Part shown: in pieces, positions 1 to 14,154 of the stretch
Position numbering within the stretch: the first letter of the stretch is position 1
Layout: every line of letters begins with the position of its first letter
Origin: Candidatus Micrarchaeota archaeon
GTDB taxonomy: Archaea > Micrarchaeota > Micrarchaeia > Norongarragalinales > UBA8480
DNA: 46,249 nucleotides
Assembly (NCBI GenBank): GCA_964388435.1
Contig: CAYMAH010000064.1
Span: 1-46,249, forward strand
Direction of reading: 5' to 3'
The notes under the pieces: model-generated
The model's input: the letters and a program-made list of their open reading frames with translations, nothing else
Told to the model about the DNA's origin: nothing
Database searches by the model: none
Position numbers and translations under genes: made by a program

Positions 1-94
1 TCCTGTAGAGGAAAAACGCAGCTTTCATGAATGGTGATTGTAAAAGCTCTTTTCGCCGCAGTTAGGTTCGGGGGTTCAAATCCCTCTCCCTGCA
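1..94 (+). tRNA. tRNA-Leu, 3' portion (5' half outside window), with a 55-nt intron (9-63) in the variable arm
   Basis: T-arm GGGGG-TTCAAAT-CCCTC and acceptor 3' strand TCCCTGC-A. Removing 9-63 at the BHB motif gives the variable arm CCT-GTAG-AGG typical of archaeal tRNA-Leu. The anticodon is not in the window. Confidence 0.8.
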
Positions 95-246
95 CTAACC
101 CGTCTCATAACACTAGCCGATTGGCATGTTTTTGCCGAATGTGACGAGAACCCTAAAATCCTCTTCCGCGTAGGAAGACAAGCATGAACGAGTTCGAAGT
201 GCACAAGAGCATGAAGAATTTCGAGCAATCCTGCGACCACCTCGAA

Positions 247-426
247 AGGGATAAACAGGTTGTACGACTGATGCCCGTCGATTAATGGCTTGATTGCTTC
301 CGCGATCGCCTTCATTTCCGCTTTTCGATGAACAAGCTCGGTGGGAAAGTATTCTGGCATACGTGCCTCTTCCTTTGTGATTATGCTACGCTACTCTGCG
401 CGTCCACGAGAAAACAGTTCGCTCAT
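247..426 (-). pseudogene. cdc6: Cdc6/Orc1 replication initiator, N-terminal relic
   Basis: MSELFSRGRAE*RSIITKEEARMPEYFPTELVHRKAEMKAIAEAIKPLIDGHQSYNLFI matches the Orc1/Cdc6 N-terminus (Y.P..L.HR..E...ia..i.p...g....nlfi). It has an in-frame TAG and is cut off just before Walker A. Confidence 0.7.
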
Positions 427-520
427 ATTCCCACATCACAGAAATAAGAGCGCCTCAAGATTTAAATCTGACGGTTAATTCCCGCTAATTTCTGCGGAAA
501 CGAGCTGTGTATGCTATGAA

Positions 521-3433
521 TCAGTACTCCTTTACATCACTATAATCGCCTAAGGTGCCTTTGATCTTGGCTTTGGTCAATTTTGCATATTCTAGGACTT
601 CTTCAGTAGTAGCGCCCTTTTTGCTCATTCCATAAAAAGTGCTCTCGCCGAGAAGAACATAGCTCCATGCGCAACCCATTCTGTCCTCCGGCTTTAATTC
701 ATTAACCTTGTTGATCCAATCAATTGTAGCCAATCTTTTCTGTTTTACATTTATGTTGTTTAGATCTCGCTCTGCTTTTGTTTCGACCAAATAAATTTTC
801 TCACCGATTTTAACAATAAAATCCGGGAAATAATGCGAGAGAAGTCCATCATCACGAATGTAGATTATGTTCGCAAAATCATAGTAATGCTCGTTTATTT
901 TCACGAACGCTTTTACTTTACTATCTGCATCGATGAATTCTATGAATGCCCGCTCGAATCCACCTTTATTGGAGGGGTAAGCGATTTGAGGGTATATTGA
1001 TTTAGCCACTTTGATAGCGTATGTTTCCCTTATTTTTATTTCCGTAATTTCAGAGAAATATTTCTTTATTATTCTTGCATCGATAACGTCGAGCTTGTTT
1101 TGTAAGTCATATATAACCTGACTAACGTTTTTTACAATATGCTGAATTATCCTCTCTTGGGTTAGTATTAGTATCTTCCAATTATTGTTTGCTAATGGAT
1201 CAAACTCTTTTCCAAATAACCTATATCGGATATATTCATCAACAAACTTAGCGATTAAGGCCGAGTTTATTTGCATTATTGGAAAATATTTATGGGACTT
1301 CTTTCCTATTTTCACAGGTATTGCTGAAACTGCGTTTACGATTTTTTGTATAAATGAATTGTAGCTTTTAGCCGTAAAGATATCTGCTGTAACAGAATAC
1401 TCCCCAAACCTTGTTTTTACCGTTAATTCCTCACCATAAAATTTATCCCCATCACTTGAAGCTAATGGTTTTAGTTGTTCTAAAGGAATGGGGAACTGCT
1501 CTAAACTTTGCAATGAAAGCTCTGGTTCAGATAAATACTCCTCTTTCTCATTTATAATTATGGGCCAGAAGAAATCATATTTTGAATAATCCTCTTTTAG
1601 GTCAACGGTAATTATATCGCCAACAACGCGGTCGCGCGCGGGTAATGTTTTTGTCTCAGCTATTGCGCCACTGAGTTCTCTCTCATAAAACTCTACAAAA
1701 GCAGGGTGTTCGATTATACTGAGAATATCCATATAGTTGTCTGGTTCTTCTTTTTTGATCAGCAACTTTTCACGGGTTTCACTTTTGCTATCTTGATACT
1801 GTGGTTCTCTCCACATTAGCCTTAAACCTCGTCCTATCGTTTGTTCCAATAAGATATACGAAGAGCTTGAACGCAATGGAACAATTACACAAATATTGTT
1901 TACATCAAATCCTTCTCTAAGCATCAAAACAGAGAGTATTACCTTTGGTTTCTGATGTTTATCCAAATCAAATAGTTTCTGTTTTACACTTTCCCACTCG
2001 TCCTCACCAATTTCTCCTTTTCGGTTGGAATGAATTTCCATAATGTCTTCTTCGCTTAAACCTTCTTGCCGTAAAAATTGTTCAACTAATGGAACGACGG
2101 TTGTATCCTCACAAATCACGAGCATCTTTGGATGTTTGTTCTCGTCTAACTTGTAGAACCCGTCCTCCAAAATTTTAAGTTTGGTAAGTCCGGCCCTCAG
2201 CATTATTCGTTGCCCTTCGGATAAAGTAAGTGTCTTGCCGTCCCACTCGGCCTTAAACTCTAATGGCAGTGCAGCGATTTCCTTACGTTTATCAATCGCT
2301 ACAGTTTTTACTAATCCATTTCGTATTGCAGTAACTATCTCAAAATTAACTATAATGTGAGGGAAAAAGTGCCTTGTTCTCTTTTGTCCTGAACCAGTGA
2401 CAGTATAAGGGGTTGCAGAAAAGTCTATTTGAACAAATCTATTGCCTTTTCTCCCCATTATTTCTAGAAGTGCTTCTTGCCATTTCTTTTCGAATACTTC
2501 ATCTGCTGTTTTCCATTCGCTAAGATGGTGCGCTTCATCATTGAAAACAATTAGATCCGGAAACTTGGCAAGAAATTCGATTTTCCGGCCCCTTAAATAT
2601 TTATTGTCTAATTGCTCTAAAGAATGCCCTGCAGTAGTTCCGGGAGTAATTGGTAGTATAGATTTAATTATTCTAGAAGAATTATCTAATGCGGTGCCAG
2701 AATCATTTTCTTCTTCGTCTTCAGCCAATAAATGCCAGTTAGTAATAGCAATTAAACCATCGCCAGTTACCTTCCTTGATATTTCATCTTTTTGAGCTAC
2801 AGAACTTTGTATAAATCCAAAAATTTCGTTTTTATAAGCTGGATGGCAAAATAGACTTTCAAACATCTTAAAATCTGATTTGGCAAAATCTCTCGTTCCG
2901 TCTTCTTTTCTTTTTCCAAGGTACGCATCCAATAATCGCTCATAAACAATAATGCCTGGTGCGACAAGCAAAAAGTTTTTTGTAAATCTTTCAGATAGCT
3001 GCTCTTCATGCTTTGCATTTAGATATTGCCAAATCAACAATGCTGACAAAACCCATGTTTTTCCAGTTCCAGTGGCCATTTTGATGCAGTATTTTGGATG
3101 ATTATACTTGTCTTTTTTCAGATCTATCAAATCCATCTCAGCAAGAAGATCCGGATAAATAGACATATACATATCTTGGACGTTTTTCACTTTCAGAATT
3201 TCGTGAACGTAGATCATGTTCAGTATTGCTTGCCACTGCCCCTCGTGAAAATTGAAAGTTCTCAAATCAGCAAAACTGCCTTCCGGATCCCAAAAACGAA
3301 GTAAATCCTTTGTTATCGGAGAAACCTTTTCGATGAAGCTGCCTTCTTTCCATTCTTTATTAGCCATTTTTGAGATCAGTTCAGCTAACTTCAATGGGAT
3401 AGTATTAGTTCCTAGTGATTTTGCTTGAACCAT
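521..3433 (-). CDS. res: Type III restriction enzyme Res subunit (SF2 helicase + PD-(D/E)XK nuclease)
   Basis: MATGTGKT Walker A, DEAHH, SATP, MLREGFDV, EQTIGRGLR, and C-terminal YFPDFIVK...LVETK; abuts mod. Confidence 0.9.
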   Translation of the reverse strand: MVQAKSLGTNTIPLKLAELISKMANKEWKEGSFIEKVSPITKDLLRFWDPEGSFADLRTFNFHEGQWQAILNMIYVHEILKVKNVQDMYMSIYPDLLAEMDLIDLKKDKYNHPKYCIKMATGTGKTWVLSALLIWQYLNAKHEEQLSERFTKNFLLVAPGIIVYERLLDAYLGKRKEDGTRDFAKSDFKMFESLFCHPAYKNEIFGFIQSSVAQKDEISRKVTGDGLIAITNWHLLAEDEEENDSGTALDNSSRIIKSILPITPGTTAGHSLEQLDNKYLRGRKIEFLAKFPDLIVFNDEAHHLSEWKTADEVFEKKWQEALLEIMGRKGNRFVQIDFSATPYTVTGSGQKRTRHFFPHIIVNFEIVTAIRNGLVKTVAIDKRKEIAALPLEFKAEWDGKTLTLSEGQRIMLRAGLTKLKILEDGFYKLDENKHPKMLVICEDTTVVPLVEQFLRQEGLSEEDIMEIHSNRKGEIGEDEWESVKQKLFDLDKHQKPKVILSVLMLREGFDVNNICVIVPLRSSSSYILLEQTIGRGLRLMWREPQYQDSKSETREKLLIKKEEPDNYMDILSIIEHPAFVEFYERELSGAIAETKTLPARDRVVGDIITVDLKEDYSKYDFFWPIIINEKEEYLSEPELSLQSLEQFPIPLEQLKPLASSDGDKFYGEELTVKTRFGEYSVTADIFTAKSYNSFIQKIVNAVSAIPVKIGKKSHKYFPIMQINSALIAKFVDEYIRYRLFGKEFDPLANNNWKILILTQERIIQHIVKNVSQVIYDLQNKLDVIDARIIKKYFSEITEIKIRETYAIKVAKSIYPQIAYPSNKGGFERAFIEFIDADSKVKAFVKINEHYYDFANIIYIRDDGLLSHYFPDFIVKIGEKIYLVETKAERDLNNINVKQKRLATIDWINKVNELKPEDRMGCAWSYVLLGESTFYGMSKKGATTEEVLEYAKLTKAKIKGTLGDYSDVKEY

Positions 3434-5422
3434 CTAAATGACCTCTTGCACTGCAACGCTTTCAAATCCAAAGACGTCTACGGCTTTTACACATATCTTC
3501 CTCTTTCCGTTCACTTTTGGAACTATGAGTTTAGCCTTTCTTTCAATTTTTAAAGTGTCTTCATGGTTTTCTCTATAATCCTGCCATTTACTTCTAAATA
3601 CGTCTTCATCATAGTCTGGGTCTATACTCCAATACTCTATTAAACTTAATGGGTCTTTTTCTATGACCTCCTCCAGTTTTTCCTTATTTTCCTTGTCTAA
3701 CGGCAGTGCATCCGGCGACAACAAAACATAATTCTCTAGCTCGACATCAATTTCATCATTTTCTTTATCAGACTCCTTCTTCCTTATTGGTTTTACATTC
3801 AGATACTGCAATGAAGAGAATCTCACCTTTCCTTCTCTTATTAGCCTTTCATAATCTGCTTTATGTTTAAGTTTTTCTAACAAGTCAGGCGGTATGACTA
3901 ATACCTCCATTCTGTCATCATCAATTTCCTTTTGGAAACTTTCTATTATTCTGCTAATATTCAAATCGAAATTCCAACCCAATACAATTACTTTCTCCCA
4001 TCCTCCCATAAATGATGCTCTAAGCTCCTGCGCTTTCTTTAATGTGGCATAGCCAGTCATTTTTTTAGGTGAGTCTACAAAAACTAGTGTTTTAGTTTGT
4101 TTTATGTAACCTAAGTTATTTGGTGTGCCTTGCTGCATTGGAAATGGCAAGGCACCATAAAGATTCAGAACGACATGTGCTAAGTCCCCAATACTTTTGA
4201 ATGATGACTGCTCAAATTGTTCTTTTTGATAATCTCCTATGGACTGAAACAAAAATGGTTTGGCATCTTGGTCTATAAGTCTTTTACGCGTTATCATGCA
4301 CGCAGGCTTTCCTAAGTCGCACATAATCCATCTTCTATCGAACTTTTCAGCAACCGCACTGGTTGTGCCACTACCTGAAAAGAAATCTGCCACTATAGAA
4401 TTAGGATTTGATGAAGATTGCACTATTCTTTCTAATAAATTCATGCTCTTTTGTGTATCAAAGCCCAAATATTCATCACTTGCCTTCTGAACATAAGATA
4501 GGTCTGACCAAACATCAGACATTAATACTCCTTCTTTATCCGAAATGTGCTGTTTCAGATATTTCTTCCCCGTCTTTGCATCACTGTAAATTTTGCCTTC
4601 TTTCTCGAATTTACTTATTGATTCATCTGAATAATTTCTGAGTATTTGCAGTCTATATTTACCCTTTTCATCCTCATATCGATACATGTCTAATGTCTTT
4701 TTCGAATATGGTGAAAAGCTTGGATTAAATATGCTTTTGCCCTTACTATACCATAATATTGTATCGTGTAACCTAGCAAACTGATTCATACCTCCAGATA
4801 CACCAGTAATGCCATGTGCCCTTTTCCATATTATCTCATTTCTGAAGTTATTTCTATCAAAAATATCATCCATAATAACTTTTACATAGTGTCCAACATG
4901 CCAGTCTATGTGAACATAAATTGAGCCTTGCTCACTTAGTAGTTCTTTCATAAGTATTAATCGTGGTACAATCATTTCAAGATAAGATTTCGTTCCTTCC
5001 TTCCACGTATCAGAATATGCAAACTGCTCGATTACAGTAGGCTTTTGTTTTATCTCTATCTTTGGTAAATGTATCTTTGTTCTGTAGTCAGCTTTGCTGT
5101 CAAACGGCGGGTCTATGTATATCAAATCTATTTTTCCTCTCATAGACGGTGTATTCGTAGCCGGATCTCCTGCAAGCAAGGCCTGCATGGCAAGAAGATT
5201 ATCCCCGTAAATCATTCTGTTGAGCCCATCTTTTTTATCAAGTTCTTTTACGGCTTGTCCAGTGAATCCTACAAGTCCACCCCCTGCTTTTGTTGGCAAA
5301 ACGAGTTCGTTTGTTTGTAGAGTTATGCGACTTCGGCTTGAGAGACTGTCCAGCCTTTTCTGAGCGTCTTTCTTTCCGTTTGCAACGATTTTTGGTAGTT
5401 CATCTATCAACGAATCTGGCAT
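3434..5422 (-). CDS. mod: Type III R-M Mod subunit (beta-class adenine DNA methyltransferase) with long C-terminal extension
   Basis: IYGDNL, DLIYIDPPF (motif IV), FRNEIIW, DFFSGSGTT (motif I); directly upstream of res. Confidence 0.92.
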   Translation of the reverse strand: MPDSLIDELPKIVANGKKDAQKRLDSLSSRSRITLQTNELVLPTKAGGGLVGFTGQAVKELDKKDGLNRMIYGDNLLAMQALLAGDPATNTPSMRGKIDLIYIDPPFDSKADYRTKIHLPKIEIKQKPTVIEQFAYSDTWKEGTKSYLEMIVPRLILMKELLSEQGSIYVHIDWHVGHYVKVIMDDIFDRNNFRNEIIWKRAHGITGVSGGMNQFARLHDTILWYSKGKSIFNPSFSPYSKKTLDMYRYEDEKGKYRLQILRNYSDESISKFEKEGKIYSDAKTGKKYLKQHISDKEGVLMSDVWSDLSYVQKASDEYLGFDTQKSMNLLERIVQSSSNPNSIVADFFSGSGTTSAVAEKFDRRWIMCDLGKPACMITRKRLIDQDAKPFLFQSIGDYQKEQFEQSSFKSIGDLAHVVLNLYGALPFPMQQGTPNNLGYIKQTKTLVFVDSPKKMTGYATLKKAQELRASFMGGWEKVIVLGWNFDLNISRIIESFQKEIDDDRMEVLVIPPDLLEKLKHKADYERLIREGKVRFSSLQYLNVKPIRKKESDKENDEIDVELENYVLLSPDALPLDKENKEKLEEVIEKDPLSLIEYWSIDPDYDEDVFRSKWQDYRENHEDTLKIERKAKLIVPKVNGKRKICVKAVDVFGFESVAVQEVI

Positions 5423-5547
5423 AATAAAACCTCATATCAGTGCTAATTTTCCAGCGATTGTTATCTTAAACTGATCATCTATATAACCTTGCCTCTTGAG
5501 CTCCCTAAGATGTATATAAATCATTCCCTTGGTTCGTCCTAGATGCC

Positions 5548-5868
5548 GTGATTATTTCAGGTCAAATAGATCTGCTGAAAAAGGTAGATGAGGACGGAAA
5601 CGTAACCGAATTCGAGATAATAGATTTCAAGACCGAGAATGACAAAAAGGAAAAGGCGTATCAGCTGGATTACGAGAAACAACTTAGGTTATATTCAATC
5701 GCGTGTCTCAAGTCCCCCGGTCTCAACCCAAAAAGAGCCACGGTTCACCATCTCGATAATACCCTTTTGGGCACCAAATCAAGCGTGGACATATCACCCA
5801 AGAAACTCGAGGAAACCAAGGAGTCGGTGAGGGAAGAAATATGTTGCGGAGACAATAGGTTCGAATAG
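5548..5868 (+). pseudogene. Fragment of a PD-(D/E)XK nuclease domain (C-terminus of a UvrD/AddA-like helicase-nuclease)
   Basis: ISGQIDLLKK...IIDFKT...YEKQLRLYSIA RecB-like motifs; no helicase N-terminus and a truncated C-terminus. Confidence 0.65.
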
Positions 5869-5918
5869 ACTTACATTTAATGCCAACATCATAAACGAGA
5901 TAGGAGAGGAATCAATAG

Positions 5919-6044
5919 AACAAAATGACAATCTACGAGATAAGGGACACGGTGCACGTGTTCCCAACGATGAGCGAGGCAATAAAAAAAGTCGCTCAAA
6001 GCTTTGAACAGGACTTGAACAAAATGGCGTGCTGCGTTGAATGA
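5919..6044 (+). pseudogene. merA: Mercuric reductase C-terminal remnant
   Basis: Unannotated frame NKMTIYEIRDTVHVFPTMSEAIKKVAQSFEQDLNKMACCVE* is the MerA C-terminus with the diagnostic vicinal CC; a stop codon lies immediately upstream. Confidence 0.85.
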
Positions 6045-6052
6045 AAAAAAAA

Positions 6053-6937
6053 TCAGTACATGCTTTCGAGGATTTTTATTCTGTCTTCAAGCGGAGGGTG
6101 GCTGGAAAAAAGGTTTGAAACCCCTTTTAGGGGGTTTGAAATATAAAGCGGGGCCGTGGTTTCAGTCGCGTGCTTTACAGGCGTGCTTGCGGGGTTTTTA
6201 GAGTATTGCTGGATTTTTTTCAAAGCGTCTGCAAGGCCTTTAGGATTTCTCGTTAGCCTTGCTCCATTCGCGTCGGCCATGTACTCTCTTTTTCTTGAAA
6301 TCGCCAGTTGAATGAGAGCGGCCGCTATAGGCGCTAGAATGCCGACAATCAAGGCAATTATGATGAATATTCCCTCATTCCTGTTGTCCCCTCCTCCGAA
6401 GAAAAGAAAGCTTCTGAAAAACATTGCTATAATGCCGATAACGCCTGCGAAGACTATTGCAATCATCATGAATTGAATGTCGTTGTTTCCCACGTGCGAC
6501 ATTTCATGGGCTAACACTCCCTCCAGCTCTTCCTTGTTCATCATTTGAAGAAGTCCTGTTGTCACGCATACCGAAGCGTGCTTTGGGCTTCTTCCTGTTG
6601 CGAAAGCATTTGGGTTTGGGTCATTCATTATGTAAATCTTGGGAACCGGAAGCTGTTGGGCTAGTGCAAGTCCTTCCACTATATTGTACAACCCGGGGTA
6701 TTGTTTTCTGTCGGCTTCTTTTGCCTGGCTAATGCTTAAAACAACCTTATCTCCTGCAAAATAAGTGAACGCCGCGTAGATTCCAACCAGAATGAAGCTT
6801 ACCGCAAGGCTCAAAACGCCTCCTCCGAGCAGAATGGCGAAAATGTAAACAATTCCTACGAACAGAAGGAAGAAAACTGCCATTAACACAAACGATTTCA
6901 GCCTGTTTTTAGCTATCTGGTCAAAGAAACTAACCAT
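6053..6937 (-). CDS. htpX: Zinc metalloprotease HtpX (M48)
   Basis: PNAFATGR, LAHEMSH (HExxH), SRKREYMADA, SSHPP; transmembrane segments. Confidence 0.95.
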   Translation of the reverse strand: MVSFFDQIAKNRLKSFVLMAVFFLLFVGIVYIFAILLGGGVLSLAVSFILVGIYAAFTYFAGDKVVLSISQAKEADRKQYPGLYNIVEGLALAQQLPVPKIYIMNDPNPNAFATGRSPKHASVCVTTGLLQMMNKEELEGVLAHEMSHVGNNDIQFMMIAIVFAGVIGIIAMFFRSFLFFGGGDNRNEGIFIIIALIVGILAPIAAALIQLAISRKREYMADANGARLTRNPKGLADALKKIQQYSKNPASTPVKHATETTAPLYISNPLKGVSNLFSSHPPLEDRIKILESMY

Positions 6938-6966
6938 TCAAACACCATGTTATTATTTTTTTTGTT

Positions 6967-7581
6967 TTATTTTTTGGATTGTTTTGAGGTTTTTGCCGGC
7001 TGTGAAGGCGCGGATGGTTGCGGGTTGTTGACGTCGTCAAAGTTAACCTTAACCACCTGCTTTTCCTCCTCAGGGGCTTGGAAGAAGTCTGCTTTTGTGA
7101 AGTTGAATGTTCCCGCGAAAATGTTTCCGGGGAATTGTTGAATTGCGTTGTTGAAGTCCAGGACATAATCATTGTAAGAGGTTCTTACGAAAGAGATTTT
7201 GTCTTCGGTTGTCTCCAGTTCCTCCTGAAGCATTTTGAAGTTCTCGTTCGCCTTCAAATCAGGATAATTCTCGGCGACGGCGAAAATGCTTTTCAAAGCC
7301 TGGCTTATCTGATTGTTTGCCTGCGCTTTGTCCTGGACAGAGCCTGAAACTATCGAGCTTCTCAATCTAGTCACGTCTGTTAGCACCTGCTTTTCGTATT
7401 TCATGTAACCTTTGACGGTTTCAACCAGGTTTGGTATCAAATCGTACCTTCTTTTCAGTTGAACGTCGATTTGAGCCCAGGCGTCTTGAACCCTGTTTCT
7501 CTTAGATATCAAGCCATTGTAAATCAAAATTATGATAACCAAAAGAACAACTATAATACCTCCAATAATCCAACTCAACAT
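6967..7581 (-). CDS. lemA: LemA family protein
   Basis: N-terminal TM, AWAQIDVQLKRRYDLIPNLVETVKGY, AVAENYPDLKAN; lemA-htpX synteny. Confidence 0.95.
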   Translation of the reverse strand: MLSWIIGGIIVVLLVIIILIYNGLISKRNRVQDAWAQIDVQLKRRYDLIPNLVETVKGYMKYEKQVLTDVTRLRSSIVSGSVQDKAQANNQISQALKSIFAVAENYPDLKANENFKMLQEELETTEDKISFVRTSYNDYVLDFNNAIQQFPGNIFAGTFNFTKADFFQAPEEEKQVVKVNFDDVNNPQPSAPSQPAKTSKQSKK

Positions 7582-7774
7582 AATTTCATCACTTCTTTCA
7601 GAATTTAAACTCTTTTTTAAAAAGTTTAAAATATTTTGAACCTTTTTATTTATATTTAAATAGGTATTTTAACTTTTTGTTTAAATTGCGATTAAAAAAC
7701 AGTTTTTTTCTTAAAAGTGCAGTTGAAACTTGTTAACCTATTAACTTAAAAGATTTCATTCCCTTAATATAAAA

Positions 7775-7835
7775 CAGTGATGATACCACCCCAGTCTGAG
7801 CTTAACGCTTTGATGACAAAGGTAGCTTCTGATTG
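7775..7835 (+). ncRNA. Box C/D 2'-O-methylation guide sRNA (predicted 23S rRNA targets)
   Basis: C box GTGATGA 7777-7783, guide TACCACCCCAGT, D' CTGA 7796-7799, C' TGATGA 7811-7816, guide CAAAGGTAGCTT, D CTGA 7829-7832; both guides are 12 nt. Confidence 0.9.
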
Positions 7836-7937
7836 AATAATTATCTATAAACTTATTTTTTTTAGAAAACTTTTAATTTTTGCATAAAAAATAAGATTTT
7901 TTTTATTGTTTGGTGCTTCTAAAAATCGTAAAAAACG

Positions 7938-7988
7938 GGTTCTGTCAATAAATTCGGTGCTTTTAAACTCCTGTCGCATAAGGCGCCT
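7938..7988 (+). repeat. Left terminal inverted repeat, including a dif-like site at 7971-7998
   Basis: GGTTCTGTCAATAAATTCGGTGCTTTTAAACTCCTGTCGCATAAGGCGCCT. Confidence 0.9.
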
Positions 7989-8031
7989 TAATAATTAGCT
8001 TTTTAACCTTTAGCGATTAATCTTTTTTGTA

Positions 8032-8514
8032 ATGTCAAACTATAAGAATTGTCTTAGGTGGGATGTTAAGCAACTCTCAAAAGCTATGAAAATCAAGCCT
8101 AAAGACGTGAAAGAATATTTTACTGATGGGAGGAGAGTGTCTTTTATTCTTGAAAGAAGGCTTGCTTATGAGGTTATTCATGGTAGATTGGCGTTAAGTG
8201 AGGGTGCTGATTATGATCTTATAGATAAGGAAGGCAAGAAGTATGAGGTTAGGAGCATCACTGACAATGGTATTTATTTTTGTCCAAGTTATATGATAGG
8301 TTCTGGTAGGTCTTTTAATGAAAAGGGTTTTTTAAAGAAGTTAAAAGACATTGAGGGGTATATAATAGCGGATGTTTATGGTTTTCCAAACATTCTTTTT
8401 TGGGTAATCCCTAATTATACTGTTAAAAAATGGTGGGATGAAGGATTACTAGGCAAAACTACTAAGATAAGCAGAGGTAGAGCGTTAGAATTAGTAAAAG
8501 AGTTAAAAGTCTGA
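8032..8514 (+). CDS. Putative Type II restriction endonuclease
   Basis: 160 aa with DYDLIDKEGKKYEVRS, a PD-(D/E)XK-like motif with R at the K position; convergent with and overlapping the DNA MTase. Confidence 0.6.
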   Translation: MSNYKNCLRWDVKQLSKAMKIKPKDVKEYFTDGRRVSFILERRLAYEVIHGRLALSEGADYDLIDKEGKKYEVRSITDNGIYFCPSYMIGSGRSFNEKGFLKKLKDIEGYIIADVYGFPNILFWVIPNYTVKKWWDEGLLGKTTKISRGRALELVKELKV

Positions 8515-9291
8515 TAGCACTTGCATTAATTTTATTTTAGCTAGTTTTATGTATTTTTCGTCTATATCAAACCCAAGATATTTACAACCTATTTTTTTAG
8601 CAACCACGCATGTTGTACCAGAACCTAAGAACGGGTCTAAAACAACAGTGTTTTTATTATAACCTTGTAGTTTTATGCACATTTCCGGTAGTTTTTCAGG
8701 GAATATTGCAGGGTGTTCTTTTTCTTCTACTACTGTCTCGTATGGTATGTACCAAACGTTTCCCCTATCCCTTAAATCCTTTTTTACTGACTTCCATCTT
8801 TCAATGTTTGTCTTATCCACATAAGGAACGCCGATAGCGAGTTTATCCAATTCAACGTCTTTATTCTTTGTAAAATGAAAGATATACTCATGACAATTAT
8901 TTAAGAAACGATTGCTGTTCACAGGTTTGAAATGTCCCACGCTTATACGCTCTTCTGGTATTGAAATATGTTTTACCCAATGTATGGTATTTTGTATTCT
9001 TAAATTCTCATTATTTATTCTTTTAGCCACTTCAAACGCTTTTAGCTCGTCACTTGATTTATCTCCAATATTAAAAAATAAAGACCCTTTTTCTTTAAGC
9101 ACTCTTTTAGACGCTTTTCCAAATTCATCCATCCAATTCAGATAATCTTCAAAATTCATGTTGTCTTGATGTGAATTGTAGTTCACTCCAATATTGTAGG
9201 GCGGAGAGGTTATTATAATATCCACGCTTTCAGCTTCTAACTCATTCATTCCTTTAATACAATCCACTTGATAGATTTTATTTAATTGCAC
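8503..9291 (-). CDS. Beta-class site-specific DNA methyltransferase (probably N4-cytosine)
   Basis: IIITSPPYN (motif IV), HPAIFPEKL, VLDPFLGSGTT (motif I). Confidence 0.92.
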   Translation of the reverse strand: MQLNKIYQVDCIKGMNELEAESVDIIITSPPYNIGVNYNSHQDNMNFEDYLNWMDEFGKASKRVLKEKGSLFFNIGDKSSDELKAFEVAKRINNENLRIQNTIHWVKHISIPEERISVGHFKPVNSNRFLNNCHEYIFHFTKNKDVELDKLAIGVPYVDKTNIERWKSVKKDLRDRGNVWYIPYETVVEEKEHPAIFPEKLPEMCIKLQGYNKNTVVLDPFLGSGTTCVVAKKIGCKYLGFDIDEKYIKLAKIKLMQVLSDF

Positions 9292-9294
9292 GTT

Positions 9295-9480
9295 TCAAAC
9301 CGCCTTAGTTAAATCTTTCTTATATACTTTGACTACCACTTCCTTTCCTACAAATTCCTTTAATTGCGGTGCTCTTAAATTGATAGCACCATAATAGTAT
9401 TGTTTAGACGTTCCGTTGCTTAATTTTTTCTTGTCGGAGGTTGGATAGACTTTTACTTTATAAGTGGCTATTGTTTTCAT
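9295..9480 (-). CDS. Small basic protein, DUF2080/AbrB-like; candidate regulator of the MTase operon
   Basis: 61 aa, beta-rich (GAINLRAPQLKEFVGKEVVVKVY); 3 bp upstream of the MTase; TATA-like element about 25 bp upstream. Confidence 0.55.
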   Translation of the reverse strand: MKTIATYKVKVYPTSDKKKLSNGTSKQYYYGAINLRAPQLKEFVGKEVVVKVYKKDLTKAV

Positions 9481-9486
9481 ACTATT

Positions 9487-9576
9487 TTATTCTATACAGA
9501 TAAGTTAATAAACTCTTCTATATGGTTATTCTATACACGATGTTTGTATATCTTTACGTTCTTATTCTGTATAGAA
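9487..9576. promoter_or_regulatory. Repeated imperfect palindromic operators (TTCTRTAYAGAA-like) around a TATA box
   Basis: TTATTCTATACAGA 9487-9500, TTATTCTATACACG 9526-9539, TTCTGTATAGAA 9565-9576, partial TTCTATATG 9516-9524; minus-strand TTTATTAA at 9505-9512. Confidence 0.6.
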
Positions 9577-10010
9577 CAATGTTATATTTAAGGTGGTAAA
9601 AAAATGGAAGAAAAAGAATACCTGAAGCAAGCATTTTATTGAATAAGAGAACGCCTGAAAGGTTGAATGAAACAACCTACATTTTAAATCCTTTAGGTTT
9701 TTGGTTTTGTCCTAACCTTGGGGCTTTTCAATATTCGCCACCTCGCTTGTCTCACTCGGGACTTTTAAAGCGTTCATTAAAACGTTTTCCCGCCTATTAC
9801 CGTTCACACCAACCCCACATCTTTCGGCAGGGGGAAATACGGAGCTATCGTAATAAGCAGCCAAAAACTCTTAGACTACATAGGAAAAATAGAAGAAAAA
9901 AATAATAAAACATAAACTATCTGTATTTATTTATAAAGCTAGCGAAAACCTTAAATTAAGGGTTGTTTCATATCTTATCAACCAAAGTTTAGTTTAAATT
10001 GGTGATTTTC

Positions 10011-10241
10011 ATGAGTGACACAACAATTATTGATATTGATTTAGCTTGCGATATAAAAAATGATATTATTTTAAATTCAGATGTTATAGTTCCAGATATT
10101 GCTCTAAAAGATAAAATACTTAAAACAGATAATAATCTTTTAATGAGAGTTGTTAAAGTAATAGGCTCAAAAAAACGGATAATATCTGCAGATGTAGTAG
10201 ACCTACTTTATTTAGACAATAATCTAATTTCTAAAAAATAG
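10011..10241 (+). CDS. Hypothetical protein (possible partner or antitoxin of the downstream PIN-like protein)
   Basis: GGTGA RBS before ATG 10011; its stop overlaps the start of the next ORF. Confidence 0.5.
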   Translation: MSDTTIIDIDLACDIKNDIILNSDVIVPDIALKDKILKTDNNLLMRVVKVIGSKKRIISADVVDLLYLDNNLISKK

Positions 10242-10726
10242 TGTTTAAAATGCCTAAAGTTAAATTTTCATTTAGGTTTATTATTGATAGACACTTCTTT
10301 GATGATGCTATAAAAAATGAAAATAATAGAAGTAAAATTTTTCAAGATTTAATGTATATTTCTAGTTATTCAGCAGAATTTAATAGAGAGCATAATCTTA
10401 TGTCTGAAAAGATAAGAAATGATATTATATCAAAAAATCCAAAGGTAGGTGAAGAGTATATAAAAAAAGCTTTCAACAAAGTTAATGAACCTTCTAGCAT
10501 AGAATGTATAGAAGATGAATTAACAAGAAATATAAAATATGCAATATATTATGTTAATCCTTCTCCTGAAAAAATAACACAAATATGTATTTTAACTTCT
10601 GATGAAATGAAAGATAAATATTTAGAAAGTGAACACTTAGGAGGTATACAAAATGTTATTGTTAAATCCGGAGACGAAGCTTTTGAACTTTTAGAAAAAT
10701 TTAAAAATTTAGCTTGGTCAAGATAA
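10241..10726 (+). CDS. Divergent PIN-domain-like protein
   Basis: N-terminal FIIDRHFF, C-terminal ICILTSD and VIVKSGDEAFELL echo PIN-fold motifs. Confidence 0.5.
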   Translation: MFKMPKVKFSFRFIIDRHFFDDAIKNENNRSKIFQDLMYISSYSAEFNREHNLMSEKIRNDIISKNPKVGEEYIKKAFNKVNEPSSIECIEDELTRNIKYAIYYVNPSPEKITQICILTSDEMKDKYLESEHLGGIQNVIVKSGDEAFELLEKFKNLAWSR

Positions 10727-10858
10727 AAATTAATACCTAACCTTCTTTCTCTTATTAAAATCACTTAAATTATGCTAATTTATTTTCATTATCAAAGTCC
10801 CGTTTGCGACAGGATTATTCAAGTCCCGAGAACAAGACAAAACCTCGGTTTTTATTAT

Positions 10859-10909
10859 AGGCGCCTTATGCGACAGGGGTTTAAAAGCACGGAATTTATT
10901 GACAGAACC
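10859..10909 (-). repeat. Right terminal inverted repeat, including a dif-like site at 10849-10876
   Basis: Reverse complement GGTTCTGTCAATAAATTCCGTGCTTTTAAACCCCTGTCGCATAAGGCGCCT; 2 mismatches to the left TIR. Confidence 0.9.
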
Positions 10910-10915
10910 AAAAAA

Positions 10916-10987
10916 CGAAACATTTATAAATTACTGCGTATAGTATTTTTAGTTTTTATTTTCAATTAAAAATACTATTAGTAGTGG
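10916..10987 (+). promoter_or_regulatory. Archaeal BRE/TATA promoter with tandem NrdR boxes
   Basis: CGAAAC then TTTATAAA (10923-10930); TTACTGCGTATAGTAT (10931-10946) and ATACTATTAGTAGTGG (10972-10987) resemble acaCwAtATaTwGtgt and start 41 bp apart. Confidence 0.6.
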
Positions 10988-10992
10988 TTTGA

Positions 10993-11442
10993 ATGAAGTG
11001 CGTTTATTGCGGTTCCGACGAGACAAGCGTTTTGGATTCTAGGGAAACCGAAGATCTTCTCGCGGTTAGAAGAAGGAGGGAGTGCGGCAAATGCAAGAAA
11101 AGATTCACCACTTACGAGAGGGTTGATTTCGAGGATTTAATGGTGATAAAAAAAGACGGGAGGAGGGAGAAGTTCTCTCAGGAAAAGCTCAAAAACGGTA
11201 TTGTCAAGGCGTGTGAAAAAAGGGATGTTTCGATTGAAAAAATAGACGAGATAGTGAGAAATATTGAAAGTGATTTGAGAAAGGATGATTTGACCGAGGT
11301 GTCAAGCAAGAAGGTTGGGGATATGGTTTCAAGCGCGTTGAAGGGGTTGGACAAGGTTGCTTACATTCGCTTCGCATCGGTTTACAAAGAATTTGATGAT
11401 ATTGCAGAGTTTAAAAAGGAGATTGAAAAACTCAAAAGCTGA
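10993..11442 (+). CDS. nrdR: Transcriptional repressor NrdR
   Basis: MKCVYCG...VLDSR...RRRRECGKCKKRFTTYE zinc ribbon, ATP cone, DKVAYIRFASVY. Confidence 0.96.
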   Translation: MKCVYCGSDETSVLDSRETEDLLAVRRRRECGKCKKRFTTYERVDFEDLMVIKKDGRREKFSQEKLKNGIVKACEKRDVSIEKIDEIVRNIESDLRKDDLTEVSSKKVGDMVSSALKGLDKVAYIRFASVYKEFDDIAEFKKEIEKLKS

Positions 11443-11454
11443 GGTGGTGGTAAG

Positions 11455-14154
11455 ATGGAATTGGTAAAACAAGAGCAAAAGGAGAGGACTGGAATGTTTT
11501 CGCATTTCTTTTCAAAGAAAAATGTTCACCCGTACGATGAGGTTAATTGGACTTTAAGAAAAGCAGTTATAGAAGGAAGCGACGGGAAGAAAGTATTCGA
11601 GCAAAACAATGTTGAAGTGCCTGATTTTTGGAGTGAAAACGCCACTAATATTCTTGCGTCAAAATACTTTAGGGGAATCTTAAACTCGCCTGAAAGAGAA
11701 AAAAGCCTGAAACAGGTAATAGACAGGATTGTAAACGCCATAACCGCGTGGGGATTAAAAGATGATTATTTTGATTTTGAAGAAAGCGAAATATTCAAAA
11801 AAGAGTTGACTTTTCTTCTTCTCAATCAGTACGCTGCTTTCAACTCGCCGGTTTATTTTAACGTTGGTTTTGAGCAGAATCCTCAGTGCTCAGCTTGTTT
11901 TATACTTTCTGTTGATGATGACATACATTCAATTCTGGAATTGGTTAAAAACGAGGCGATGATATTCAAATATGGAAGCGGGAGTGGAGTAAACCTTTCA
12001 AAACTCAGGTCGTCAAGAGAACATTTAACAGGAGGTGGGTGGTCAAGCGGGCCTGTTTCGTTCATGAAACCAATGGATTCAATGGCAGGAGTGATAAGAA
12101 GCGGAGGAAAGACAAGGAGGGCTGCTAAAATGGTGATTCTTAATATAGACCATCCAGATATTGAAGATTTTGTAAAAAGTAAAGTGTTGGAAGAAAAAAA
12201 AGCATTGGCGCTTATAAACGCGGGTTATGACAGTTCAATGGACGGAGAGGCGTACTCAAGTGTGTATTTTCAAAACGCAAACAACAGTGTTAGAGTTACG
12301 GATGATTTTATGCGAAGCGTTGAAGAAAATAGAGAGTGGAGCACAAGATTCGTAAAAACAGGGGAGGTTTTCAAAACATATAAAGCTGCGGAGTTGATGA
12401 GAATGATAGCAGAAGCTGCACATGACTGCGGGGATCCAGGGCTTCAATTCGATACGACTATAAATGAGTGGAATACCTGCAATCAAAGCGGGAAGATAAA
12501 CGCTTCAAATCCTTGCAGCGAGTTTATGTTCTTGGATAACACTTCTTGCAATCTTGCTTCGCTAAACCTTATTAAATTTTTAAAAGATGATTACTTTGAC
12601 ATTGAAAGCTTCAAAAACGCTGTAAAAATAGTTCTGATGTCACAGGAGATAATAGTGGACAACGCTTCTTACCCTACAAAAGAAATGACCGATAACTCTA
12701 GGAAGTTCAGGCCTCTTGGGATTGGATACTCTAACGCGGGAGGGCTTCTTATGAGTTTGGGGATTCCGTACGACAGCAACGAGGGAAGAAACTACCTTGC
12801 TGCAATAACCGCTTTAATGACGGGGTATTCTTACCTGGTTTCATCCAAAATAGCCGAGAGGAAAACTCCATTCTCAGAGTACGAGAAGAACAAAGAGCCT
12901 TTTACTCAAGTTATAAGAAAGCATTTAGAACACGCCAAAAAACTGAAAAGCAGTGGTTTTGACGAAAAGCTTTTCCAAGCTGCTTTTAATGTTTGGAATG
13001 AAGCCTATCAGTCAGGATTGAAAAACGGGTTCAGAAACGCTCAAGTTTCGCTTTTAGCTCCAACCGGAACTATAAGTTTTTTGATGGACTGTCAAACCAC
13101 CGGAATAGAACCTGAAATAGCATTGGTGAAATACAAATGGCTGGTTGGAGGGGGAGTTATGAAAACAGTAAATGAAATGGTGCCTCAAGCGCTTGAAAAG
13201 CTAGGTTATTCAAAAAGCGAAATAGAAAAAATAATCGATTACTTAAAAGAAAAAGGGACGATAGAAGGAGCGCGGTATCTAAAGTCAGAGCACCTTCCCG
13301 TGTTTGACTGTGCTTTCAAAGCGCAAAATGGTAAGAGGAGCATCCACTGGTCAGGGCATGTCAAAATGTTGGCTGCAATTCAGCCGTTCCTAAGTGGTTC
13401 AATTTCAAAAACTGTAAACATGGATAATGATTCAACAGTTGATGATGTAATGGACGTTTACATGAGTGCTTGGAGGCTTGGGTTAAAATCAATTGCAATA
13501 TACCGCGACGGGTCGAAATCCCTCCAACCGTTGACAACGACAATTAAAACGCAGACAAAAAGAAGAAAACTTGGCGAGGAAAGAAATTCAATAACCCACA
13601 AATTCACCATCTCAGGGCATGAAGGGTATTTAACAATAGGGTTGTACGAAGATGGAACCCCTGGAGAACTGTTTGTAACAATGTCAAGACAGGGAAGCAC
13701 TATTGCCGGGTTGATGGATTCGTTTGCAGTTAATTTTTCAATAGCCCTACAACACGGCGTGCCATTAAAAACCCTTGTAAGCAAGATGATCTTCACCCGT
13801 TTCGAGCCTGCCGGAATAACAAACAACAAAAATATTCGCTTCTCCACAAGCATCATAGATTATATTGGAAGGTGGCTTGCATTAAAGTTTTTGACAGATG
13901 AGGAGCTTGAAGAGATAGGAGTGAAGGAGCGCGGTGAGCAGAAAACGCTTGATGAAAAAGCGGCGAAGATAGACGAAAACCAGGTAAAAATAACACGGGC
14001 GCCATTAAGCTCGCCAGAAACTCAAAAAGAAAAAACAAGTGGTTTTGTAAACCAGCTTGACGCTCCGCTCTGCCCGAACTGCGGAATGGTCATGGTAAGA
14101 AACGGCGCGTGTTATAAATGCCTTAATTGTGGGGCGACCAGCGGCTGTTCTTGA
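11455..14154 (+). CDS. nrdJ: Class II (adenosylcobalamin-dependent) ribonucleotide reductase with C-terminal TSCPD and Zn-ribbon region
   Basis: FNSPVYFN, QCSACFI, GGKTRRAAKM, ASNPCSEF, APTGTIS, IYRDGSK, CPNCG...CLNCGATSGCS. Confidence 0.93.
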   Translation: MELVKQEQKERTGMFSHFFSKKNVHPYDEVNWTLRKAVIEGSDGKKVFEQNNVEVPDFWSENATNILASKYFRGILNSPEREKSLKQVIDRIVNAITAWGLKDDYFDFEESEIFKKELTFLLLNQYAAFNSPVYFNVGFEQNPQCSACFILSVDDDIHSILELVKNEAMIFKYGSGSGVNLSKLRSSREHLTGGGWSSGPVSFMKPMDSMAGVIRSGGKTRRAAKMVILNIDHPDIEDFVKSKVLEEKKALALINAGYDSSMDGEAYSSVYFQNANNSVRVTDDFMRSVEENREWSTRFVKTGEVFKTYKAAELMRMIAEAAHDCGDPGLQFDTTINEWNTCNQSGKINASNPCSEFMFLDNTSCNLASLNLIKFLKDDYFDIESFKNAVKIVLMSQEIIVDNASYPTKEMTDNSRKFRPLGIGYSNAGGLLMSLGIPYDSNEGRNYLAAITALMTGYSYLVSSKIAERKTPFSEYEKNKEPFTQVIRKHLEHAKKLKSSGFDEKLFQAAFNVWNEAYQSGLKNGFRNAQVSLLAPTGTISFLMDCQTTGIEPEIALVKYKWLVGGGVMKTVNEMVPQALEKLGYSKSEIEKIIDYLKEKGTIEGARYLKSEHLPVFDCAFKAQNGKRSIHWSGHVKMLAAIQPFLSGSISKTVNMDNDSTVDDVMDVYMSAWRLGLKSIAIYRDGSKSLQPLTTTIKTQTKRRKLGEERNSITHKFTISGHEGYLTIGLYEDGTPGELFVTMSRQGSTIAGLMDSFAVNFSIALQHGVPLKTLVSKMIFTRFEPAGITNNKNIRFSTSIIDYIGRWLALKFLTDEELEEIGVKERGEQKTLDEKAAKIDENQVKITRAPLSSPETQKEKTSGFVNQLDAPLCPNCGMVMVRNGACYKCLNCGATSGCS

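What the first reader, a model, noticed from the sequence alone, without database searches (positions are those of the whole stretch)
7971..10876. dif/Xer-like recombination sites nested inside both transposon ends: candidate hybrid transposon and cassette-exchange system
Seen: each end holds an 11-6-11 site, left CTGTCGCATAA-GGCGCC-TTAATAATTAG (7971-7998) and right TTTTTATTATA-GGCGCC-TTATGCGACAG (10849-10876). TIR identity stops just past the palindromic spacer, and AGGCGCCTTA is also a direct repeat (7981-7990, 10859-10868). Recombination across the spacers would release the cargo as a circle and leave a near-perfect 94-bp palindrome centred on CTGTCGCATAA-GGCGCC-TTATGCGACAG. Known: dif sites have a TAA-N6-TTA core, the E. 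coli XerC arm is GGTGCGCATAA, archaea use a single XerA, and pdif modules shuffle cargo in Acinetobacter. Inference: a two-tier vehicle in which DDE-type ends move the element and a host tyrosine recombinase loads, swaps or inverts defence cargo. I do not know of a described archaeal element with this architecture.
Basis: partly seen in the sequence, partly recalled or inferred. Interest (0 to 1): 0.85.

Follow-up and report, generated by a model that had tools for sequence, protein, structure and literature searches.

The report
Mobile restriction-modification island with inverted-repeat ends
A small archaeal genome carries a 3-kb jumping DNA island, bounded by inverted repeats and holding a restriction-modification defence system, and the supposed dif/Xer recombination sites inside its ends are just the inner tips of those repeats.

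Summary
A 51-nt inverted repeat (49/51) lies at 7938-7988 and 10859-10909, with GGCGCC at each inner tip. I also found an 8-bp direct repeat (AAAAAACG) flanking the repeats. A congener genome has a clean empty site. So the whole 2,972-bp unit is one insertion, GC-poor, into a Micrarchaeota chromosome. It carries a type II restriction enzyme, an N4/N6 methyltransferase and small unknown ORFs, but no transposase.

The dif/Xer reading fails its own tests:
- The arms within each 11-6-11 site are not inverted repeats (5/11 and 3/11).
- The inner arms match no better than chance (4/11).
- Related ends elsewhere keep only GTTCTGTCAATAAA-N19-TGTCGCAT, not TAAGGCGCC.
- No Xer-type recombinase was found in this genome or in 9 of 11 family members.

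Contigs from three public runs show no empty palindrome, circle or inversion. They do show a second allele with a different right end and less cargo, and a second insertion site.

Closest known: the transposase-less, TIR-flanked R-M units with 8-bp duplications described in bacteria (Furuta 2010). The mobilising enzyme is unknown.

The parts
7930..7937 (.). Left copy of the 8-bp flanking direct repeat AAAAAACG (target-site duplication or crossover core)
   Evidence: Removing the element plus one copy restores an intergenic region collinear with congener G002.
7938..7988 (+). Left terminal inverted repeat, 51 nt. It contains the two family-conserved blocks GGTTCTGTCAATAAA (7938-7952) and TGTCGCAT (7972-7979), and GGCGCC (7982-7987) at its inner tip.
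   Evidence: A contig from a second genomic site carries the same 51 nt and diverges after 7988.
8032..8514 (+). Type II restriction endonuclease, 160 aa
   Evidence: PADLOC REase_II PDLC03550, E 1.2e-48. No Pfam, NCBIfam or PDB sequence match. 760 homologues, and the few listed rows that carry a source name are called 'hypothetical protein'.
8503..9291 (-). Beta-class N4/N6 DNA methyltransferase, 262 aa, with an SPPY motif
   Evidence: Pfam N6_N4_Mtase, 1.9e-51. PADLOC MTase_II, 7.6e-94. Best PDB match is a cytosine-N4 methyltransferase, 8s9m. SPPY is seen in the translation; reading it as N4-cytosine is recalled knowledge.
9295..9480 (-). 61-aa ORF just upstream of the methyltransferase; a possible controller protein (inferred)
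   Evidence: ORF list and translation. No family in four libraries.
9487..9573 (.). Three copies of TTATTCT(A/G)TA(C/T)A, spaced 39 and 36 nt, in the promoter region of the 61-aa ORF and methyltransferase operon; operator-like
   Evidence: 3 matches against 0.58 expected; I23.
9620..9896 (.). GC-richer stretch with no recognised gene that closes the shared R-M module. Its last ~20 nt (9878-9896) resemble the inner part of the C39-type end. 9896/9897 is the natural breakpoint between alleles.
9897..10858 (+). Allele-specific segment (23-28% GC) with ORFs 9999-10241 (80 aa) and 10241-10726 (161 aa) of no known family. It is present at about half the depth of the flanks in the three runs.
10800..10813 (.). 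Subterminal second copy of the CC-TT-GCGACAGG motif, 64 nt inside the right TIR copy (right end only)
   Evidence: (D15, I2).
10859..10909 (-). Right terminal inverted repeat, 51 nt, 49/51 to the left one, with GGCGCC at 10860-10865
10910..10917 (.). Right copy of the 8-bp flanking direct repeat AAAAAACG

Best explanation
Positions 7938-10909 are a 2,972-bp non-autonomous mobile island bounded by 51-nt terminal inverted repeats. It inserted as one unit, with an 8-bp duplication (AAAAAACG), into the intergenic region between a LemA-family gene and nrdR of a Micrarchaeota chromosome.

It carries a type II restriction-modification system plus small unknown ORFs and encodes no transposase or integrase. 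It must therefore be moved in trans, by an enzyme that recognises the two conserved end blocks (GGTTCTGTCAATAAA and TGTCGCAT, 19 nt apart). Those blocks are shared with the end of an integrase/primase-bearing element on contig C39 of the same genome and with a few other Micrarchaeota contigs.

The GGCGCC hexamers are the inner tips of this particular subfamily's TIR, not a second recombination system.

Shown: the TIR, the flanking repeat, the empty site, the low GC, the cargo identity, a second insertion context, and a second allele in the population. Inferred: a transposase-type cut-and-paste mechanism, and its supply in trans.
For: TIR and flanking repeat:
- TIR of 51 nt, 49/51.
- 8/8 flanking direct repeat, p about 1.4e-4.

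Empty site:
- Congener G002 aligns to window 6050-7834 and 10913-14150 with about 98 bp between the two blocks, against about 3,078 bp in the window.
- The window minus the element and one repeat copy is collinear with G002.

Foreign composition and cargo:
- GC is 23-36% inside against about 42% outside.
- Cargo is REase_II plus N6_N4 MTase.
- No transposase or integrase domain was found in the five cargo ORFs or the 9639-9905 ORF.

Mobility in the population:
- A 1,269-nt contig (X1, X3) has a different left flank, then the identical 51-nt TIR, then diverged cargo.
- The R-M core sits at about twice the flank depth.

End family:
- The two blocks recur at C39:293-334, in 2 Micrarchaeota MAG contigs and in metagenome contig L048.
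- The flanks differ in every case, and tblastx of 7 sequences found no shared proteins.

Precedent:
- Bacterial R-M units with 60/65 or 26/26 TIRs, 8-bp duplications and empty sites have been described (PMC2853133, section 17 passages).
Against: No cognate transposase was found:
- ISL3, rve, IS1595 and IS256 models gave nothing in the genome.
- The one DDE_Tnp_1 hit (C18) is interrupted by a stop and has no such ends.

Outside the window the end motif is seen only as solo copies. No inverted partner lies within 8.7 kb in G061:C40 or 3.7 kb in L048.

In G061 the motif sits in the middle of a ~390-nt indel relative to G419, not at its edge.

An 8-bp flanking repeat is also what a tyrosine recombinase with an 8-bp crossover region would leave.

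The flank next to the right TIR resembles the flank next to the C39 end (17/30; 78% over 64 nt including the end, E 4e-4). This hints at site preference, which is unusual for simple DDE transposition.
Confidence: 0.72

Rival explanations
1. Each end holds a dif-like 11-6-11 site. A host XerA-type tyrosine recombinase recombines across the GGCGCC spacers to load, swap, excise or invert cargo inside a transposon shell.
For: - GGCGCC stands at the inner tip of both TIRs, and joining them would give a near-perfect palindromic 11-6-11 site.
- Three independent copies of this end subtype (left, right, and a second-locus contig) keep identity exactly up to GGCGCCT and then diverge.
- Cargo is polymorphic in the population.
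Against: - dif is defined as two 11-nt inverted repeats around a 6-nt spacer (PMC8371274, section 20 passage). Here the arms match 5/11 and 3/11, and the inner arms 4/11, which is chance level.
- The other family ends continue TGTCGCATTC, not TAAGGCGCC.
- The only PF00589 hit in the genome is a sub-threshold 23-bit match in the C39 element. 9 of 11 other family genomes have no hit over cut-off.
- Two of the three natural breakpoints are not at GGCGCC.
- R-M homologues in 7 other genomes of the class show no paired GGCGCC or TIR within 1.5 kb.
Confidence: 0.05
2. The island is a satellite of the C39-type integrative element. A tyrosine recombinase such as the 239-aa integrase on C39 recognises the conserved outer block. 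The excised circle carries a lox/FRT-like site (outer block, 8 bp, outer block). The 8-bp 'duplication' is the shared crossover core rather than a transposase stagger.
For: - The only recombinase gene found in the genome lies in an element that has the same end motif.
- One population allele of the island carries a right end whose 41 recovered inner letters are identical to C39 308-348.
- The flanks beside the C39 end and the window's right end are similar.
- Inverted core sites abutting a short direct repeat are what integrase products look like (established knowledge, recalled).
Against: - No C39-like integrase was found in the two other genomes that carry the motif, 0 of 4 genomes searched.
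- The integrase scores below the Pfam cut-off.
- The reconstructed target shows no resemblance to the end blocks (by eye).
- No abutted-ends junction was found in viral contigs.
- The other end of the C39 element is not assembled, so its own architecture is unknown.
Confidence: 0.13
3. Nested history. A ~94-102-bp palindromic MITE (two abutting TIRs) inserted first. The R-M cargo later entered its centre, duplicating AGGCGCCTTA.
For: - There is a 10-bp direct repeat at the cargo borders, and cargo removal leaves a near-perfect palindrome.
- The TIR subtype is shared by cargo variants that diverge right after GGCGCCT.
Against: - No bare palindrome was found anywhere: own genome, 60 relatives, 400 other phylum genomes, genome contigs, metagenome contigs or viral contigs pattern scans.
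- Eight of the 10 repeated bases follow automatically from a palindrome inside an inverted repeat.
- G002 lacks the TIRs and cargo together.
Confidence: 0.07

Closest known systems
Transposon-like R-M units flanked by terminal inverted repeats and 8-bp duplications (Furuta, Abe & Kobayashi 2010, NAR; PMC2853133, section 17 passages read)
   Same: - R-M genes lie between imperfect TIRs (60/65 and 26/26 there, 49/51 here).
- There is an 8-bp direct repeat matching a single copy at the empty site of a related genome.
- No transposase lies inside.
- The repeats are not found in the comparison genome.
   Different: - Those cases are bacterial (Xanthomonas oryzae, Neisseria gonorrhoeae); this one is in a DPANN archaeon.
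- Here the ends belong to a small family also borne by an integrase/primase element.
- Two alleles with different right ends coexist in the population.
- Their Supplementary Table 3b (24 cases) could not be seen.
pdif / dif modules of Acinetobacter plasmids (search listing and abstract starts only; details recalled)
   Same: - A cargo module lies between two short sites in inverted orientation, each written as 11-6-11.
- The cargo is accessory or defence-type genes.
   Different: - pdif sites have recognisable XerC and XerD arms, occur many times per replicon, and the host encodes XerC/D.
- Here the inner arms are unrelated AT-rich sequence, there is one pair only, and no Xer gene was found.
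- The pair is part of a longer TIR with a flanking 8-bp repeat.
Archaeal XerA/dif (PMC8371274 section 20 passage; PMC2958812 listing and abstract start only)
   Same: - The 11-6-11 arithmetic fits.
- The hypothetical joined product would be a palindromic site, as suits a single recombinase.
   Different: - dif is a single-copy chromosomal site with dyad-symmetric arms, bound by a chromosomal XerA.
- Here dyad symmetry is absent in the actual sites and XerA was not found.
Non-autonomous TIR elements (MITE-like elements carrying passenger genes; recalled class)
   Same: TIRs, a TSD, no transposase, and presumed mobilisation in trans.
   Different: - At 3 kb with five ORFs it is much larger than a MITE.
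- No autonomous parent has been identified.
- A 2019 survey of Thaumarchaeota stated that passenger-carrying composite transposons had not been detected in archaea (PMC6563490, Discussion passage).

Membership tests
dif / Xer recombination site (including pdif-type modules) | Two 11-nt arms that are inverted repeats of each other around a 6-nt spacer, within each site | tested here: not met
   Left site arms match 5/11 and right site arms 3/11. The definition is from the PMC8371274 section 20 passage.
dif / Xer recombination site (including pdif-type modules) | A cognate Xer-type tyrosine recombinase encoded by the host | tested here: not met
   PF00589 in the own genome (94% complete) gives one hit of 23.1 bits, below the 27.1 cut-off, and it lies inside the C39 mobile element. 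2 of 11 other family genomes have a hit over cut-off. All 14 control genomes rang. An unassembled gene cannot be excluded.
dif / Xer recombination site (including pdif-type modules) | The site is conserved among homologous elements or sites | tested here: not met
   C39, L042, L043, L048 and L046/47 keep only the two blocks and continue TTC after TGTCGCA. The inner arms match 4/11.
dif / Xer recombination site (including pdif-type modules) | Module boundaries and recombination products (circle, empty site, inversion) fall at the spacer | tested here: inconclusive
   Contigs of 3 runs from one study list two joints, neither across the spacers. One of the three variant breakpoints (7988/7989) abuts GGCGCC. 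Contigs cannot show rare products.
TIR/TSD DNA transposon, non-autonomous (Furuta-type R-M unit) | Terminal inverted repeats | tested here: met
   51 nt, 49/51.
TIR/TSD DNA transposon, non-autonomous (Furuta-type R-M unit) | A short direct repeat of target sequence directly outside both ends, single at the empty site | tested here: met
   AAAAAACG on both sides. The G002 intergenic region is collinear with the window after removal of the element plus one copy, although the 8-mer itself has diverged there.
TIR/TSD DNA transposon, non-autonomous (Furuta-type R-M unit) | Copies at other sites with other flanks | tested here: met
   A second flank joined to the identical 51-nt TIR appears in contigs of X1 and X3. 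That flank is absent from the MAG. Related ends lie in other contexts. This rests on contigs from a single study.
TIR/TSD DNA transposon, non-autonomous (Furuta-type R-M unit) | A transposase that acts on these ends, in cis or in trans | tested here: not met
   None lies inside the element. In the genome, PF01610, PF00665, PF12762 and PF00872 gave nothing, and PF01609 gave one interrupted copy on C18 without these ends. Other transposase families were not searched.
Type II restriction-modification system | Adjacent restriction endonuclease and DNA methyltransferase genes | tested here: met
   REase_II PDLC03550 at 1.2e-48 and MTase_II PDLC03295 at 7.6e-94. Pfam N6_N4_Mtase. The genes converge and overlap by 12 nt. 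Activity and specificity were not tested.
Integrase-mediated integrative element | An integrase gene in the element and att direct repeats, often in a tRNA gene | tested here: not met
   There is no integrase in 7938-10909 and no tRNA at the site. Only the 8-bp repeat fits.

The most novel reading that the evidence does not exclude
The two-block end (GGTTCTGTCAATAAA-N19-TGTCGCAT) marks an undescribed family of Micrarchaeota mobile elements. In it, one end-recognising enzyme serves very different cargo modules: an R-M island here, and an integrase/primase element on C39. That enzyme could be the small C39-type tyrosine recombinase or an unrecognised transposase. Co-resident elements would exchange ends and cargo, as the two alleles at this locus suggest. 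That would be a modular cassette system in DPANN archaea, but one working at the element ends rather than at the GGCGCC hexamers.
Probability: 0.2. Interest if true: 0.65.

Novelty: new member of a known kind. Interest (0 to 1): 0.35.

Why it matters
- It gives a clean archaeal (DPANN) example of a defence system travelling as a transposase-less, TIR-bounded unit. This form is documented for bacteria, and a 2019 archaeal survey said it had not been seen in archaea (PMC6563490, Discussion passage).
- The island is caught in the act. Two alleles and a second insertion context coexist in one mine-drainage community, so its mobility and the enzyme responsible can be studied with existing data.
- It removes a tempting but unsupported claim of a Xer-based cassette system in archaea. 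It also notes that this Micrarchaeota family seems to have no XerA at all.

Tried and rejected
- **Is GGCGCC the R-M target?** Genome-wide, GGCGCC occurs 75 times against 79 expected from the 5-mer/4-mer (maximal-order Markov) estimate, so there is no avoidance. Homologue names were all 'hypothetical protein'. Specificity stays unknown.
- **Is the end motif an RNA gene?** Rfam at E<=1 and ARAGORN on the motif loci found nothing. By eye there is no consistent covarying stem. Rejected.
- **Is the end motif a universal chromosomal site (dif or origin)?** It was found in only 3 of 401 sampled phylum genomes, G000 included. Rejected.
- **L044/L045** (N17 spacing, T instead of G before the block) encode a TIR-NB-ARC-LRR protein in a gene-poor contig. 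These are plant DNA and a chance match, dropped from the family. They are still rows in alignment A1.
- **L046/L047** remain uncertain.
- **Viral contigs.** The strict pattern gave 0 and the abutted-ends pattern gave 0. The loose pattern gave 18 stretches, all unrelated coding sequence without the extended motif. The C39 primase found no relatives.
- **Relatives' DNA search** (60 genomes) gave only 14-42-nt matches at E>=0.0155. These are chance.
- **Extra single-block hits** in G001 and G061 lack the second block.
- **Reads.** No joint across the GGCGCC pair, no back-joint and no strand change were listed in three runs kept as contigs. Contigs drop rare variants, so this says little. Loose ends matching C55 have no homology to the element by BLAST. 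I take them as chimeric or short shared words.
- **Atlas search** of the 161-aa ORF gave a best score of 0.86 with no family.
- **Supplements** of PMC2853133 (Table 3b, 24 IR-flanked cases) could not be seen.


Full report
**1. What is in the sequence**

- A 51-nt inverted repeat joins 7938-7988 to 10859-10909 with 49/51 matches. With one gap it runs to about 57 nt.
- GGCGCC lies at 7982-7987 and 10860-10865.

At a fixed position in this AT-rich spacer an 8/8 match has a probability of about 1.4e-4.

**2. Host and insertion**

The genome (881 kb, 68 contigs, 94% complete) has an SSU rRNA that scores 1190 bits on the archaeal model and 892 on the bacterial one. The only named records sharing the end motif are Micrarchaeota MAGs.

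The element sits between a LemA-family gene (6967-7581, minus strand) and nrdR (10993-11442), which is followed by a class II ribonucleotide reductase.

A congener, G002, has NrdR at 84% identity.
- Its DNA aligns to window 6050-7834 and 10913-14150.
- About 98 bp separate the two blocks in G002, against about 3,078 bp in the window.
- After I removed 7938-10917 from the window, the remaining intergenic region aligned collinearly with G002.

GC is 23-36% inside and about 42% outside. The TIRs, the cargo and one repeat copy are therefore a single insertion.

**3. Cargo**

| Coordinates | Strand | Product | Evidence |
|---|---|---|---|
| 8032-8514 | + | 160-aa type II restriction enzyme | PADLOC REase_II, 1.2e-48; no Pfam, NCBIfam or PDB sequence match, |
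| 8503-9291 | - | N6_N4 methyltransferase with an SPPY motif | |
| 9295-9480 | - | 61-aa ORF of no known family | |
| 9999-10241 | + | 80-aa ORF of no known family | |
| 10241-10726 | + | 161-aa ORF of no known family | |

- The 61-aa ORF is preceded by three operator-like repeats.
- The restriction enzyme family is widespread: 760 proteins at E<=1e-3 among 847 candidates. The few listed rows that carry a source name are called 'hypothetical protein', from both bacteria and archaea.
- There is no transposase or integrase inside the element.

**4. Testing the dif/Xer reading**

dif is defined as two 11-nt inverted repeats around a 6-nt spacer, present in single copy and bound by a chromosomal Xer enzyme (PMC8371274, section 20 passage).

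- **No dyad symmetry.** Within the left site the arms match 5/11, and within the right site 3/11. The two inner arms match 4/11, a level reached by 39% of random 11-mer pairs from the element.
- **The core is not special.** TAA-N6-TTA is at chance frequency (32 observed, 30.6 expected), and the right site lacks it. 12-bp palindromes are common, 19 in the window.
- **The direct repeat is mostly automatic.** AGGCGCCTTA as a 'direct repeat' follows largely from an 8-bp palindrome lying inside an inverted repeat.
- **No Xer enzyme.** The genome's only PF00589 match scores 23.1 bits, below the cut-off, and lies in a mobile element on contig C39. Only 2 of 11 other genomes of the family have a match over cut-off, while all 14 control genomes rang.

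**5. Homologous ends**

In the own genome there is one further copy, C39:293-334 (79% over 42 nt, E 5.6e-4). It has no partner.

An exact two-block pattern gave these results:
- 2 stretches in genome contigs, both Micrarchaeota MAGs (L042, L043);
- 0 in viral contigs;
- with a slightly looser pattern, 5 stretches in metagenome contigs.

Of those 5 metagenome stretches:
- L044/L045 are plant DNA and count as chance;
- L046/L047 are uncertain;
- L048 is about 90% identical (by eye) to L043 over roughly 60 nt, with different flanks.

In a sample of 401 genomes of the phylum, only G000 and the same two MAGs have the motif.

Alignment of the copies shows invariant columns only in GTTCTGTCAATAAA and TGTCGCAT. 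Every copy outside the window continues TTC, not TAAGGCGCC. The loci share no proteins (tblastx).

R-M homologues occur in 7 of 250 other genomes of the class. None shows the motif, a paired GGCGCC or a flanking inverted repeat within 1.5 kb.

**6. Natural variation (three runs of one mine-drainage study, Logan contigs only)**

No joint across the two GGCGCC hexamers, no back-joint and no inversion is listed. Contigs cannot exclude rare forms. Three other things do appear.

(a) **A second allele at this locus.**
- A contig joins 9896 to 10895.
- Loose ends give the 41 letters in between.
- Those letters are identical to C39 308-348 in reverse complement.
- This allele therefore lacks 9897-10858 and has a C39-type right end.
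- Its depth plus that of the window form equals the flank depth: 7.26 + 6.75 against 13.1-13.8 in X1, and 10.5 + 9.55 against 21.4 in X3.
- The shared contig of the right flank starts at 10905, just after the last difference.
- I infer from this that both forms sit at the same site.
- Window 9878-9896 resembles the inner part of the C39-type end. This suggests the window form is the derived one.

(b) **A second insertion context.**
- A 1,269-nt contig in X1 and X3 has another left flank, which is not in the MAG.
- It then carries the identical 51-nt TIR up to 7988.
- About 90 nt are replaced after that.
- It then matches 8079-8179 with 7 differences in 101 nt.

(c) **Depth of the R-M core.** The R-M core (about 8370-9856) has roughly twice the flank depth.

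The island is thus mobile and mosaic. Its breakpoints (7988/7989, 9896/9897, 10904/10905) coincide with GGCGCC only once.

**7. What moves it**

Nothing inside the element can. In the genome:
- models for ISL3, rve, IS1595 and IS256 transposases found nothing;
- the one DDE_Tnp_1 match (C18) contains a stop.

The C39 contig is an integrative element. It has a 239-aa tyrosine recombinase (PHROG integrase, 1.4e-8), a D5-type primase-helicase and a P-loop ATPase. The same end motif lies at its left border, oriented so that these genes are 'inside'. That makes its recombinase a candidate.

Against this candidate:
- no homologue was found in the two other motif-bearing genomes (0 of 4 genomes searched);
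- the far end of C39 is not assembled.

The flanks next to the C39 end and next to the window's right end are similar (17/30), which hints at target preference.

In G061 the solo motif lies inside a ~390-nt indel relative to G419. So not every copy marks a clean boundary.

**8. Comparison with what is known**

[quoted passage not shown] 2010. Those have imperfect TIRs, an 8-bp duplication, an empty site in a relative, and no transposase (PMC2853133, section 17 passages). They are bacterial.

A survey of Thaumarchaeota stated that passenger-carrying composite transposons had not been detected in archaea (PMC6563490, Discussion passage).

**9. Verdict**

It is a mobile, defence-carrying element with swappable parts in an archaeon, but the nested Xer system is not supported.
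- I file it as a new (archaeal) member of a known kind. The open and moderately interesting question is which enzyme recognises the shared ends.

Noticed in passing
G000 contig C39 (L054) 1-9687: This contig is a mobile element. It has a 239-aa tyrosine recombinase (4166-4885; Pfam 23 bits, PHROG integrase 1.4e-8), a D5-type primase-helicase (6941-8917, DUF5906), a P-loop ATPase with a C-terminal HTH-like tail (588-1604), a type IV prepilin-peptidase-like protein and methyltransferases. The island's end motif lies at 293-334, and a small hydrophobic ORF ends right beside it.
   Followed up: partly
window 9487-9573: Three copies of TTATTCT(A/G)TA(C/T)A (3 found, 0.58 expected) lie upstream of the 61-aa ORF and methyltransferase. 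They look like operators of an R-M controller.
   Followed up: partly
window 10993-14154: An archaeon carries the bacterial-type regulator NrdR (Zn ribbon plus ATP-cone) directly upstream of a class II ribonucleotide reductase. NrdR homologues are present in 7 of 11 other genomes of the family.
   Followed up: partly
whole genomes of the family: Only 2 of 11 other family genomes have any tyrosine recombinase over the Pfam cut-off, and those are ~406-aa proteins. This Micrarchaeota family may lack XerA altogether. If so, how its chromosome dimers are resolved is an open question.
   Followed up: no
window 10910-10939 and C39 263-292: The host DNA beside the right TIR and beside the C39 end is similar (17/30 in register; a TATA-like box about 13 nt from the end, then a T-rich 8-mer). 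A similar layout is seen beside L043 and in the second-locus flank from reads. This suggests a possible target preference for promoter-like AT-rich sites.
   Followed up: partly
G061:C40 8580-8963 (L060): The solo end motif lies in a ~390-nt segment that a relative (G419) replaces with ~55 unrelated nt. The 87 nt just outside the motif recur at G061:C3:1249-1337 (85%) and contain two GTTGCGCAT words. This may be a second small repeat element abutting the first.
   Followed up: partly
G000:C18:8565-8966: The only DDE_Tnp_1 transposase match in the genome has an in-frame TAG, so it is probably a decayed IS.
   Followed up: no
L044/L045 (metagenome contigs): These are plant-like contigs encoding a TIR-NB-ARC-LRR resistance protein. 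They match the two-block pattern, including the three bases after it, by apparent chance. This is a caution for pattern scans of metagenomes.
   Followed up: yes
window 8079-8179 and 8372-9856 in runs X1-X3: The R-M core is nearly identical between the two genomic contexts, while the first ~190 nt after the TIR differ (about 90 nt replaced, then 7% divergence). This is a mosaic pattern, suggesting recent recombination or gene conversion between element copies.
   Followed up: no
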